Below, piece after piece: positions 50,423-53,400 of a DNA stretch of 64,000 nucleotides (its first letter is position 1; each line of letters starts with the position of its first letter). The position numbers are program-made. Location of the stretch: assembly GCF_965641715.1 (NCBI RefSeq), contig NZ_OZ282453.1. One strand, written 5' to 3'. Source of the stretch: Escherichia coli (GTDB taxonomy: Bacteria; Pseudomonadota; Gammaproteobacteria; Enterobacterales; Enterobacteriaceae).

Positions 50423-53400
50423 AAGATCGTGCAAATTCAATATATTGCAGGAAGTATGTAGGCCTGATAAGCGTAGCGCATCAGGCAGTTTTGCTTTTGC
50501 CATCACTCTCAAGGGCCGCGAAAGCGGCCCTTTTTTTACTTAGTAGAGATAAACGGAACTGTGCTGCCGGGGATCATGGTATTGGGCAGTTTACCGTCCC
50601 AACGTTCGGCAGTGGTGAGGGCTACAAGTCCGGGATTATCTCGCAGAGCTTCACCGCGCAGGCGGATTGCTTCTGCTTCAGCCGCACTTTTTAAACGAAT
50701 AGTTTCAGCCTCTGCCGCGCCTCTTACGCGAATAGTTTCCGCTTCTGCTTTGGCTGCCGCCAGTTTACTGTCTGCTTCTGCCTGGGCCTGAGTTACCGCT
50801 ATTTGCGCCTGGATTTTCTCTGTTTCCAGATTTTGCTTACGCGTGGCAATGGCGACTTCTGCTTTCATTCGGTCTTCAATCGACTTTTCATAAGCGTCAG
50901 AAAAATCAATATTTTCAATCTGGACCCCGTCAATTACCACTGGCCCAACAACGGCTTTGCGCATGGCATTTTGCAGATCCTGAACCAGTTTTGTACGATC
51001 CTGTACAGCGCTGATGGCGGTATATTGGCCGAAAACGTTCTCCAGTTGAGTTGGCAACTGACGGACAATCAGACGATCTTTTAATGCTTCAATGGTGTTG
51101 TAGGTGGTATAAACCGCGCCTGCTTCTGAAGGTTTAATGTGGAAGCTGACTGATACTGTCATTTGTGCCGGTTGCTGGTCGCGGCTGTAGGCCTGTAATC
51201 CCTGATAGACCACAGCCTGATTACGCGTGGAAATTTTCTCCACGCTTTCCATAAACGGGATCTTAAAACCCAGACCCGGCTCGGCAACTTTTACGATTTT
51301 TCCGTAGCGCAGCAAAATGCCGCGTTCACCTTCATTAACGGTGTAATACGAGAGAAATGGCAGCACAACCACGGCAAGCACGCCAATGGCGATAGCAAGA
51401 GATTTTTGTGGGCGAAATGAGGTTAATGAAACAGGTGCTTTCATGACAATCTTCCTTGAGTAAAGTGTGGGAATATGTCACATGAGATGAGGAGAAAACA
51501 GCCGACAGGTGAGAATTCAGAATCTATAAAGGGGTATAGCGAAAAAACATTGTATTAGAAAAGTATGTTTTCGAACATTCAATAAATAAATAGAGATATG
51601 CATCACAAATACAATAACAAACAAAATGTTGATTTTGTGATAAACATAACAAATACAAAGTTGACTTTAAAAATATTAATTTCATATTGTTGTTATTTAA
51701 GGTTTTATTATTTTGGTTTATGGGGTTTTTCTTCTCGCGTACCCAATTGCTTTCATTAAACCGCACGAGTATTTTATTTTTACCGCCGGACGGTACCCTA
51801 AAAATAAAATAAGGATAATTTATGCGGCTTAGTGATTATTTTCCAGAATCATCAATCTCAGTTATACATTCAGCAAAAGATTGGCAGGAAGCTATCGATT
51901 TCTCGATGGTATCATTGCTGGATAAAAACTATATCAGCGAGAATTACATTCAGGCAATTAAAGATTCCACCATCAACAATGGCCCTTATTATATTCTCGC
52001 ACCAGGCGTGGCAATGCCTCATGCGCGACCGGAATGTGGGGCGCTTAAAACCGGGATGTCTTTGACGTTACTTAAACAAGGTGTTTATTTTCCGGGGAAT
52101 GACGAACCGATTAAATTACTCATCGGACTTTCTGCTGCCGATGCCGATTCGCACATTGGCGCTATTCAGGCGTTAAGTGAATTACTGTGCGAAGAAGAAA
52201 TACTCGAACAACTCTTAACAGCATCATCAGAAAAACAATTAGCGGACATTATCAGCCGCGGATAATTACTCTCTCCTCTACAGGATAATATTATGGAAAA
52301 CAAGTCTGCTCGTGCAAAGGTCCAGGCTTTTGGGGGCTTTTTGACTGCAATGGTCATCCCCAATATTGGTGCTTTTATTGCCTGGGGTTTTATTACTGCG
52401 TTATTTATTCCCACCGGTTGGCTGCCTAACGAACATTTCGCCAAAATTGTCGGCCCGATGATTACCTATTTATTGCCCGTGATGATTGGTTCTACCGGTG
52501 GTCATCTGGTCGGCGGTAAACGCGGCGCGGTCATGGGCGGAATAGGTACTATTGGTGTGATCGTCGGCGCAGAGATCCCGATGTTCCTTGGCTCAATGAT
52601 TATGGGGCCGCTCGGTGGTCTGGTCATAAAATATGTTGATAAGGCACTGGAAAAACGCATACCTGCCGGTTTTGAGATGGTTATCAATAACTTCTCATTA
52701 GGTATCGCGGGGATGCTCCTTTGTCTGCTGGGTTTTGAAGTGATCGGCCCGGCGGTGTTAATTGCCAATACTTTCGTCAAAGAGTGTATTGAGGCGCTGG
52801 TACATGCGGGTTATCTGCCTCTGCTGTCAGTCATCAATGAACCGGCGAAAGTGCTTTTCCTTAATAATGCGATCGATCAGGGCGTCTATTATCCGCTGGG
52901 AATGCAACAGGCTTCGGTTAACGGTAAATCCATCTTCTTTATGGTGGCCTCTAACCCAGGTCCGGGCCTGGGGCTGCTGCTGGCGTTTACCTTGTTTGGT
53001 AAAGGGATGAGTAAACGTTCTGCGCCCGGGGCGATGATTATTCACTTCCTCGGTGGGATCCACGAACTGTATTTCCCATATGTGCTGATGAAGCCGCTGG
53101 CTATTATTGCCATGATTGCGGGCGGTATGTCTGGCACATGGATGTTTAACTTACTGGACGGTGGTCTGGTGGCTGGCCCAAGTCCGGGGTCTATCTTTGC
53201 TTACCTGGCGCTGACGCCGAAAGGTTCGTTCCTGGCGACAATTGCCGGTGTTACGGTAGGTACCCTGGTGTCCTTTGCTATCACTTCGCTGATACTGAAG
53301 ATGGAAAAAACGGTGGAAACGGAGAGCGAAGATGAGTTTGCTAAGTCAGCCAATGCGGTTAAGGCGATGAAACAAGAGGGTGCATTCTCGTTAAGCAGGG

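What the first reader, a model, noticed from the sequence alone, without database searches (positions are those of the whole stretch)
51445..51821. Very AT-rich divergent region between the SPFH gene and the cmtBA operon
About 375 bp of AT-rich, A/T-tract-laden DNA separates two divergent starts. Composition like this is typical of H-NS-silenced promoters, consistent with cmtBA being cryptic. The 80-aa ORF the track places here is probably noise.
Basis: inference. Interest (0 to 1): 0.3.

Follow-up and report, generated by a model that had tools for sequence, protein, structure and literature searches.

The report
AT-rich cmtB promoter region, H-NS/CRP-controlled
The AT-rich spacer is an ordinary but well-conserved bacterial control region: mostly the ancient promoter region of the cmt sugar-transport operon, which published data on related strains show is bound by the silencer H-NS and the activator CRP, plus a short piece that arrived with a neighbouring membrane-protein gene.

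Summary
Window 51445-51821 is the 377-bp spacer between an SPFH/Band-7 gene (minus strand) and cmtB (plus strand). Its GC is 30% (core 20%) against 52% for the window.

The H-NS idea is supported by published ChIP-seq. In E. coli CFT073, which has the same gene layout, cmtB is listed as H-NS- and StpA-bound, well above its neighbours.

"Silenced, cryptic" is incomplete. The right ~265 bp is the ancestral cmtB control region, found next to tktA in about 30 Enterobacteriaceae species. It carries two CRP-type sites at fixed offsets (-230 and -186 from the ATG), conserved promoter-like hexamers, and a conserved 13-bp inverted repeat just before the ribosome-binding site. In K-12-type strains, CRP binding here and CRP-dependent promoter activity are published.

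The SPFH gene and the left ~110 bp occur only in Escherichia. The 80-aa ORF is noise. Predicted curvature and the H-NS motif are not distinctive.

The start site and actual derepression in hns mutants remain untested. This is a known kind of region and of low interest. The one unexplained item is the conserved inverted repeat.

The parts
50536..51444 (-). SPFH / Band-7 (prohibitin family) gene, 302 aa. It is the left-hand divergent gene and is found at this position only in Escherichia.
   Evidence: ORF; Pfam Band_7 E=5.6e-32; RefSeq 'prohibitin family protein' in near-identical strains. Present in 1816 of 5426 complete E. coli genomes. Absent between tktA and cmtB in K-12 and in all 24 non-Escherichia species examined.
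51445..51821 (.). The AT-rich spacer of the finding (377 bp, GC 30.2%).
51445..51557 (-). Left part, associated with the SPFH gene (GC 38%). It holds the SPFH Shine-Dalgarno AAGGAAG (reverse complement of 51451-51457). It also holds a conserved block at 51470-51483 that reads TG-A-CATATT on the minus strand, a candidate extended -10. The promoter role is inferred only.
   Evidence: K-12 has no counterpart of this part apart from a weakly aligned edge. The blocks are conserved among Escherichia species. GC.
51558..51821 (+). Ancestral cmtB control region. It is homologous to the tktA-cmtB spacer of K-12 and of other Enterobacteriaceae.
   Evidence: Alignments. The spacers of 30 species are 302-461 bp with GC 29-39%, against 46-52% in the flanking 3 kb.
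51592..51607 (.). CRP-type site 1, AGAGATATGCATCACA (12.0 bits), starting at -230 from the cmtB ATG. It is the positional counterpart of the experimentally bound K-12/H10407 site CGTGTTGTAGATCACA.
   Evidence: PWM scan; alignment. A site scoring at least 9 bits lies at -216 to -245 in 21 of 30 species. ChIP-seq and SELEX evidence exists for the K-12-type allele.
51636..51651 (.). CRP-type site 2, TGTGATAAACATAACA (15.0 bits), starting at -186 and 44 bp downstream of site 1.
   Evidence: Third-best hit in the 64 kb; 0.05% of shuffles of the spacer reach this score. A site scoring at least 9 bits lies at -172 to -201 in 23 of 30 species. It is degraded in the B2 allele of Nissle and MS20655 (3.9 bits).
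51661..51688 (+). Candidate promoter P1: TTGACT, 16-bp spacer, CATATT. The TTG and the A at position 2 of the -10 are invariant across genera.
   Evidence: Consensus scan; conservation. The start site is untested.
51747..51775 (+). Candidate promoter P2: TTGCTT, 17-bp spacer, TATTTT. Both hexamers are nearly invariant and the 17-bp spacing has no indels in 30 of 31 sequences, while the spacer sequence varies.
   Evidence: Alignments. It scores below the cut-off of my consensus scan. The start site is untested.
51770..51811 (+). Perfect 13-bp inverted repeat, TATTTTATTTTTA, 16 bases, TAAAAATAAAATA. It ends next to the cmtB Shine-Dalgarno AAGGA (51811-51815). Between the arms lie a small GC palindrome, ACCG/CGGT, and an invariant GTAC (GTACC in most species). 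It is either an operator or a 5'-UTR hairpin; this is unresolved.
   Evidence: An inverted repeat this long occurs in 0.1% of dinucleotide shuffles. Conserved across genera. RNA fold -16.6 kcal/mol with z=-1.4; no RNAalifold consensus; per-species folds.
51822..52265 (+). cmtB (PTS EIIA of the mannitol family), the right-hand divergent gene. Its first 200 bp are also AT-rich (GC 39.5%).
52293..53681 (+). cmtA (PTS EIICB), second gene of the operon, followed by yggP at 53696-54973.
51524..51766 (-). 80-aa ORF with a GTG start. It is not a gene.
   Evidence: It has an in-frame stop in the B2 alleles and is destroyed in K-12. The alleles that keep it open differ by many amino-acid changes. No Pfam match. 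It runs across the conserved regulatory sites.

Best explanation
The spacer is a composite transcription-control region, not a gene or a mobile-element scar.

Its right ~265 bp (51558-51821) is the ancient control region of the cmtBA-yggPFDC operon. In most Enterobacteriaceae this region lies directly downstream of tktA. It holds two cAMP-CRP sites 44 bp apart, one or two sigma-70 core promoters, and a conserved inverted repeat at the start of, or just before, the cmtB leader.

Its left ~110 bp came with an SPFH gene that sits here only in Escherichia. That part provides the gene's ribosome-binding site and probably its promoter.

Because the DNA is about 70-80% A+T, H-NS and StpA coat the spacer and the 5' part of cmtB and keep basal transcription low. 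Expression then needs cAMP-CRP, which is shown to activate the K-12 allele, and probably a substrate-specific signal acting through the inverted repeat or another conserved block.

Shown: composition, conservation, the site predictions, and published CRP and H-NS occupancy of orthologous alleles. Inferred: that this particular allele binds both proteins, which promoter is used, and that H-NS actually represses.
For: Composition.

Ancestry:
- tktA and cmtB are adjacent across a 302-347 bp AT-rich spacer in the non-Escherichia species whose tktA end lies in the fetched locus (24 non-Escherichia species were examined). The SPFH gene lies between them only in Escherichia.
- The K-12 spacer aligns with window ~51558 onwards.

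CRP:
- The two sites score 12.0 and 15.0 bits, the third and fourth best in 64 kb. The two better hits appear to be the galP and nupG sites (identified by sequence, not by annotation), and both were in the training set.
- In 28 of 30 species at least one site of 9 bits or more lies at the same offsets. The half-sites are kept while the 6-bp spacers vary.
- The K-12-type allele gives a CRP ChIP-seq peak with FAT 16 in H10407. It is a SELEX-chip target, and its promoter fusion is less active in a crp mutant.

H-NS:
- CFT073 has the same layout. There cmtB is scored H-NS- and StpA-bound at 0.58 and 0.54 of the genome maximum. It stays flagged in the hns stpA double mutant, a set the authors equate with the highest-affinity sites.
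- The cmt transcription unit is flagged H-NS-bound by Higashi et al..

Conserved promoter-like hexamers and inverted repeat. No coding potential and no known RNA family.
Against: - No experiment has been done on this allele or strain.
- The S1E column order (WT, rfaH, stpA, hns, hns stpA mutants) is inferred from the Fig. 6 legend, not read from the sheet header. The values are gene averages, so they do not prove that the peak sits on the spacer.
- The strong CRP ChIP signal at the K-12-type allele shows H-NS does not exclude CRP there, so 'silencing' may be weak.
- Neither candidate start site puts the CRP sites at canonical positions. P1 gives about -51.5 and -95.5. P2 gives about -139 and -183.
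- In many species the left half of site 2 reads TGCAA, a poor CRP half-site, so another factor may bind there.
- Site 2 is lost in the B2 allele.
- The H-NS motif is not enriched (66 matches against 57 expected, one in the spacer). Predicted curvature is average.
Confidence: 0.65

Rival explanations
1. Pure H-NS silencing. The spacer is a non-specific AT-rich block whose only role is to nucleate H-NS filaments that shut off both divergent promoters, leaving cmtBA cryptic. There is no specific regulatory architecture.
For: Extreme AT content and TpA enrichment. Published H-NS and StpA occupancy of cmtB in CFT073, persisting in the hns stpA double mutant. The spacer core is only 76.6% identical between E. 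coli alleles while the flanks are 95-98% identical, as expected for weakly constrained DNA.
Against: Islands of strict conservation across about 30 species sit at fixed distances from the ATG: the CRP half-sites, TTG, TATTTT, and the inverted repeat. CRP binds strongly in vivo and activates the K-12 allele. The whole operon is intact in all species examined except a few fragmented assemblies, so it is not a decaying cryptic locus.
Confidence: 0.2
2. The AT-rich DNA is foreign sequence brought in with the SPFH gene. It would be the edge of a small horizontally acquired island, and AT-rich for that reason.
For: The SPFH gene has a patchy distribution: 1816 of 5426 E. coli genomes, and Escherichia only. 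REP elements lie on its other side.
Against: The most AT-rich part (51558-51745, GC 24.5%) is on the cmtB side and is homologous to the spacer of species that lack the SPFH gene. Those spacers are equally AT-rich at 29-39% GC. The SPFH gene itself is 49% GC, and the part that came with it is the least AT-rich of the spacer at 38%.
Confidence: 0.04
3. The conserved proximal block, the inverted repeat plus the invariant GTAC core, is a cis-acting RNA element in a long cmtB leader transcribed from P1. It would control translation or mRNA stability, and it would be the main regulatory device of the region.
For: The 13-bp inverted repeat is far beyond chance and conserved across genera. It abuts the Shine-Dalgarno sequence. 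Most species can form the A-U stem. An A-to-G change in the left arm in nine or so species would keep a G-U pair.
Against: RNAalifold finds no consensus structure. The single-sequence fold is not better than shuffles (z=-1.4). The apical stems lie in different registers, so there is no true covariation. No Rfam match. If P2 is the promoter, the left arm is not transcribed.
Confidence: 0.1
4. The spacer encodes a small protein, either the 80-aa ORF on the minus strand or the 53-aa ORF on the plus strand.
For: The ORFs exist, and according to the finding a gene-calling track placed the 80-aa ORF here.
Against: Both ORFs carry in-frame stops in other E. coli alleles and in K-12, and the alleles differ by many amino-acid changes. 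No Pfam match. RefSeq does not annotate either in any of the eight strains inspected.
Confidence: 0.01

Closest known systems
cmtB (cmtBA-yggPFDC) promoter region of E. coli K-12 and ETEC H10407
   Same: It is the orthologous locus. The last 76 bp before the cmtB ATG are 100% identical. There are two CRP-type sites at the same -230 and -186 offsets, and the same inverted repeat. CRP binding and CRP-dependent promoter activity are published for this allele.
   Different: K-12 lacks the SPFH gene, so its spacer is 313 bp and tandem with tktA rather than divergent. The core 51558-51745 is too diverged for BLAST to detect. The site sequences differ: CGTGTTGTAGATCACA and TGTAATATGCATCACG in K-12, against AGAGATATGCATCACA and TGTGATAAACATAACA here.
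cmtB locus of uropathogenic E. coli CFT073 (H-NS/StpA ChIP-seq, Hustmyer et al. 2022)
   Same: The same tkt / SPFH / 376-bp AT-rich spacer / cmtB arrangement, with spacer GC of 29.8%. cmtB is scored as H-NS- and StpA-bound.
   Different: It is the B2 allele. The spacer core is only 76.6% identical to the window, and CRP site 2 is degraded (3.9 bits).
bgl and other 'cryptic' PTS sugar operons of E. coli, which are H-NS-silenced and CRP-dependent (from established knowledge; PMC9678765 was seen but not read)
   Same: A PTS operon regarded as cryptic, with an AT-rich upstream region bound by H-NS and a CRP site upstream of the promoter.
   Different: For cmt, no activating IS insertions or mutations, no downstream silencer, and no antiterminator/RAT element are known, and none was found here. 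H-NS dependence of expression is untested.
mtlA control region of E. coli K-12 (paralogous mannitol PTS operon with several CRP sites)
   Same: A long upstream region with several CRP sites far from the ATG. The operon encodes an MtlR-type protein, and yggD/fumE in the cmt operon is its paralogue (from established knowledge).
   Different: I saw no sequence similarity on reading the region, and no A/T-rich inverted repeat before the Shine-Dalgarno sequence. It did not look comparably AT-rich, though I did not compute its GC.

Membership tests
H-NS/StpA-bound AT-rich promoter region | A+T content well above the genome average over more than 100 bp | tested here: met
   GC is 30.2% over 377 bp against 52.1% for the window, and 20.4% in the core. 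This is the lowest 0.5% of 377-bp windows.
H-NS/StpA-bound AT-rich promoter region | In vivo occupancy by H-NS (ChIP) | not testable with these tools
   Published for orthologous alleles only. CFT073 cmtB has a scaled H-NS signal of 0.58 and StpA signal of 0.54, flagged bound in all strains. The cmt unit is flagged H-NS-bound by Higashi et al. 2016. There are no data for this strain, and the values are gene averages.
H-NS/StpA-bound AT-rich promoter region | Derepression of the adjacent genes in hns or hns stpA mutants | not tested
   No expression data were found in the literature searches.
H-NS/StpA-bound AT-rich promoter region | High-affinity nucleation motif (TCGATAAATT-like) or intrinsic curvature | tested here: not met
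   The motif with up to 2 mismatches gives 66 matches in the window against 57 expected, and only one lies in the spacer. Predicted curvature of the spacer equals the window median, with one local peak in the top 2% (wedge parameters recalled from memory). Neither feature is obligatory for H-NS binding.
cAMP-CRP-activated promoter with tandem sites | Match to the 16-bp consensus TGTGA-N6-TCACA | tested here: met
   12.0 and 15.0 bits, where the median of 106 ChIP-seq sites is 13.0. 0.05% of shuffles reach the better score.
cAMP-CRP-activated promoter with tandem sites | Sites conserved in position in orthologous regions | tested here: met
   Offsets near -230 and -186 occur in 21 and 23 of 30 species respectively. 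The half-sites are conserved while the 6-bp spacers vary.
cAMP-CRP-activated promoter with tandem sites | CRP binding and crp-dependent transcription | not testable with these tools
   Published for the K-12-type allele: ChIP-seq FAT 16, SELEX-chip, and lower promoter-fusion activity in a crp mutant. Not known for this allele.
cAMP-CRP-activated promoter with tandem sites | Site centre at a canonical distance from the start site (-41.5, -61.5, -72.5, -92.5 and so on) | tested here: inconclusive
   The start site is unknown. P1 implies about -51.5 and -95.5. P2 implies about -139 and -183. A TG-TATTTA alternative implies about -62.5 and -106.5, but it is not conserved.
Protein-coding gene (80-aa ORF) | Reading frame kept open in related sequences, or membership of a protein family | tested here: not met
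   In-frame stop in the B2 alleles, frame destroyed in K-12. No Pfam hit.
Described structured RNA (Rfam 15) | Covariance-model match | tested here: not met
   No hit inside 51445-51821 at E up to 1. The only hits are in the REP region at 50352-50537.

The most novel reading that the evidence does not exclude
The conserved proximal module may be an undescribed cis-regulatory element specific to the cmt operon. The module is TTGNTT, 17 bp, TATTTT, overlapping a 13-bp A/T inverted repeat with an invariant GTAC core. It could be the operator for the operon's own MtlR-family protein (YggD/FumE), whose way of recognising DNA is unknown, or a leader hairpin next to the ribosome-binding site. Separately, natural alleles that keep or lose CRP site 2 (15.0 against 3.9 bits) may give E. 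coli phylogroups different cmt regulation.
Probability: 0.2. Interest if true: 0.45.

Novelty: already known. Interest (0 to 1): 0.22.

Why it matters
It matters little beyond annotation. The main value is in correcting how the region is read:
- The AT-rich DNA is not a scar of horizontal transfer. It is an old, conserved control region.
- The operon called "cryptic" has an intact CRP-type architecture across the family, which argues it is used under some unidentified condition.
- The gene caller's 80-aa ORF should be dropped.

The locus could serve as a compact natural system for studying the interplay of H-NS and CRP. Its alleles differ by 23% in the spacer core and in the presence of the second CRP site. 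The conserved inverted repeat gives a concrete handle for finding the operon's specific regulator and inducer.

Tried and rejected
- H-NS high-affinity motif search: no enrichment, uninformative.
- Rfam scan: nothing in the spacer.
- RNAalifold on 31 leaders: no consensus structure. The single fold gives z=-1.4. The apparent compensatory changes in the apical stem turned out to lie in different registers, so I dropped the covariation argument.
- Class II CRP promoter at site 2: rejected, because no conserved -10 lies at the right distance.
- Mlc/NagC-type operator for the inverted repeat: rejected from memory of the roughly 23-bp operator. The arms here are 16-18 bp apart rather than about 9.
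- Comparison with the mtlA control region: no similarity.
- Published start-site data: the Thomason et al. paper is not held, and nothing turned up in other supplements.
- H-NS tables of Kahramanoglou 2011 and Ueda 2013: supplements not held.
- The header of sheet 1E in Hustmyer et al. could not be retrieved.
- Further literature searches on cmt regulation found nothing.
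Full report
**What is there**

The window is Escherichia coli chromosome. 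The genes around the finding run as follows:
- tktA at 48295-50316 on the plus strand.
- A REP/BIME cluster at about 50320-50535.
- An SPFH/Band-7 gene at 50536-51444 on the minus strand.
- The spacer at 51445-51821.
- cmtB at 51822-52265, cmtA at 52293-53681 and yggP at 53696-54973, all on the plus strand.

The finding's coordinates are exactly the 377-bp spacer between two divergent start codons. Its GC is 30.2%, falling to 20.4% over 51540-51720, against 52.1% for the window. Only 0.5% of 377-bp windows are as AT-rich, and they fall in just two places in the 64 kb. There are 14 A or T tracts of at least 4 bases, and TpA steps are 2.3-fold enriched.

**Where the DNA comes from**

The SPFH gene is present at this position in 1816 of 5426 complete E. 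coli genomes. It is absent in K-12, where tktA and cmtB are tandem and 313 bp apart.

I scanned one genome per species with CmtB as query and obtained 30 usable loci. In every non-Escherichia species whose tktA end lies in the fetched locus, tktA is followed directly by cmtB across a 302-347 bp spacer. These include Citrobacter, Salmonella enterica subspecies arizonae and diarizonae, Raoultella, Lelliottia, Silvania, Superficieibacter and Huaxiibacter. The SPFH gene intervenes only in Escherichia: E. albertii, E. whittamii, two further Escherichia lineages, and part of E. coli.

All these spacers are AT-rich, at 29-39% GC against 46-52% in the next 3 kb. The K-12 spacer aligns with the window from about 51558 onwards, and the last 76 bp are identical.

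The spacer is therefore composite. About 265 bp is the ancestral cmtB control region, with its core at GC 24.5%. About 110 bp, at GC 38%, belongs with the SPFH gene, which is itself 49% GC. The AT-richness was not imported with the inserted gene. Whether the K-12 arrangement is a retained ancestral state or a later loss is unresolved.

**Conserved content of the cmtB side**

I built a CRP weight matrix from 106 published ChIP-seq sites, leaving out the cmtB site itself. It scores 12.0 bits for AGAGATATGCATCACA (51592-51607) and 15.0 bits for TGTGATAAACATAACA (51636-51651). These are the third and fourth best hits in the 64 kb. The two better ones match the published galP and nupG sites by sequence, and both were in the training set. 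Only 0.05% of shuffles of the spacer reach 15 bits.

The two sites start at -230 and -186 from the ATG. K-12 has CGTGTTGTAGATCACA and TGTAATATGCATCACG at the same offsets. Sites of at least 9 bits lie near those offsets in 21 and 23 of the 30 species respectively, and 28 species have at least one. The half-sites are kept while the central six bases vary.

Further blocks are invariant or nearly so:
- TTG at 51661-51663 and an A at 51684. Together these form candidate promoter P1: TTGACT, 16-bp spacer, CATATT.
- TG at 51691-51692.
- TTGNTT at 51747-51752 and TATTTT at 51770-51775, separated by a 17-bp spacer that has no indels in 30 of 31 sequences but varies in sequence. This is candidate promoter P2.
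- A perfect 13-bp inverted repeat, TATTTTATTTTTA, 16 bases, TAAAAATAAAATA (51770-51811), which ends at the Shine-Dalgarno AAGGA.

An inverted repeat of that length appears in 0.1% of dinucleotide shuffles.

It remains open whether the repeat acts as DNA, as an operator over the -10 and start of P2, or as RNA, as a leader hairpin in transcripts from P1. RNAalifold gives no consensus. The single fold is no better than shuffles (z=-1.4). The small apical stems that looked compensatory lie in different registers.

**Published evidence on orthologous alleles**

CRP:
- In ETEC H10407, which has a K-12-type spacer, the cmtB upstream region gives a CRP ChIP-seq peak with the site TGTGATCTACAACACG and FAT 16. 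This is among the highest values in that table (PMC4287617).
- Genomic SELEX found the same site in K-12, and a cmtB promoter fusion was less active in a crp mutant (PMC3105977).

H-NS:
- CFT073 has the same tkt / SPFH / 376-bp spacer / cmtB layout.
- Data set S1E of Hustmyer et al. lists the genes scored as H-NS-bound. It gives cmtB scaled values of 0.58, 0.50, 0.51, 0.25 and 0.12 with the H-NS antibody, and 0.54, 0.50, 0.53, 0.28 and 0.21 with the StpA antibody. All ten are flagged Y.
- cmtA (0.11), yggP (0.10) and c3523 (0.18), the 732-nt entry next to cmtB that I take to be the SPFH gene, are lower. tktA is not listed between c3523 and the next listed gene (PMC9765446).
- From the Fig. 6 legend, the five columns should be wild type, then the rfaH, stpA, hns, and hns stpA mutants. 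The authors state that only 12% of bound genes keep signal in the double mutant and that these have the highest affinity. I could not read the sheet header, so this column order is inferred.
- Higashi et al. flag the transcription unit cmtBA-yggPFDC as H-NS-bound (PMC4720273). The same label sits on some neighbouring genes, so that table is noisy.

**Checks that gave nothing**

- The H-NS motif TCGATAAATT is not enriched: 66 matches against 57 expected, with one in the spacer.
- A wedge-model curvature profile puts the spacer at the window median, with one local peak near 51730. The parameters were recalled from memory.
- Rfam has no match in the spacer.

**The ORFs**

The 80-aa ORF (51524-51766, minus strand) has an in-frame stop in the B2 alleles and is destroyed in K-12. 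The alleles that keep it open differ by many amino-acid changes. The 53-aa plus-strand ORF behaves the same way. Neither has a Pfam match, and RefSeq annotates neither.

**Interpretation**

The best-supported reading is an AT-rich control region that H-NS and StpA coat and that cAMP-CRP activates. It resembles the bgl-type cryptic PTS operons in this respect. It has a conserved core promoter and an unexplained conserved inverted repeat that may receive the operon-specific signal.

What is shown:
- Composition, ancestry, conservation and site predictions.
- Occupancy by CRP (K-12 type) and by H-NS and StpA (CFT073 type) on orthologous alleles.

What is inferred:
- That this allele binds both proteins.
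- That H-NS actually lowers transcription.
- Which promoter is used.
- How the CRP sites reach it. The implied distances are non-canonical for both P1 and P2.

Two cautions against a simple "silenced" label apply. CRP occupies the K-12 allele strongly in vivo. The architecture and the operon are also conserved across the family, which is not what a decaying cryptic locus looks like.

**Variation**

The spacer core (51558-51745) is only 76.6% identical between the window and CFT073 or Nissle. BLAST does not detect it against K-12. The flanking genes are 95-98% identical. CRP site 2 scores 15.0 bits here but 3.9 bits in the B2 allele. Regulation may therefore differ between phylogroups.

**Verdict**

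The feature is real and its nature is ordinary: a known kind of promoter region at a locus where both main regulators have been recorded in the literature. H-NS binding holds, but silencing is untested and the CRP architecture was missed. Interest is low. The one open item is the conserved inverted repeat.

Noticed in passing
window 50320-50535: A REP/BIME cluster lies between tktA and the 3' end of the SPFH gene. It contains an Rfam ES036/CssrF match at 50423-50465 (53.5 bits, gathering score 37.6). The same GC hairpin, GGGCCGCGAAAGCGGCCC, occurs on both sides of the cluster, from about 50340 and from about 50513. The second copy is followed by a T run and acts as a terminator-like site abutting the SPFH stop codon. 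Cluster length varies between strains by about 175 bp either way.
   Followed up: partly
window 51558-51745, compared with L003, L042 and L001: The spacer core is hypervariable within E. coli. It is 76.6% identical to CFT073 and Nissle, and BLAST does not detect it against K-12. Flanking genes are 95-98% identical. CmtB protein identity within Escherichia ranges from 86% to 99%, while CmtA stays at 97-100%.
   Followed up: partly
window about 1076-1740: This is the only other region of the window as AT-rich as the finding, and it contains the lowest-GC 377-bp window of all (27.3%, starting at 1263). A predicted curvature peak lies near 1510.
   Followed up: no
window 40740-40755 and 23299-23314: These are the two best CRP-matrix hits in the window: TGTGAAGCAAATCACA (16.4 bits) and TGTGATATGGATAACA (16.2 bits). 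The first is the reverse complement of the published galP CRP site. The second differs by one base from the published nupG site. Both published sites were in the matrix training set.
   Followed up: no
L042 (CFT073, NC_004431.1) 3093-3996: The SPFH gene is annotated as a frameshifted pseudogene in the CFT073 reference. The supplement of Hustmyer et al. lists several single-base discrepancies with that record inside this gene, so the frameshifts may be errors in the reference sequence rather than real.
   Followed up: no
window 48295-48324: The mechanical ORF for tktA starts at a GTG, 10 codons upstream of the [12 protein letters not shown] start that RefSeq uses. This is only an artefact of the ORF listing.
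   Followed up: no
L033 and L038: Two loci carry improbable organism labels for an enterobacterial cmt locus. One is a 'Chryseobacterium sp.' contig with the full tktA-cmtBA-yggP arrangement. The other is a 297-bp 'Alkalicoccobacillus' contig 98% identical to CmtB. Both are probably contamination or mislabelling in the source assemblies.
   Followed up: no
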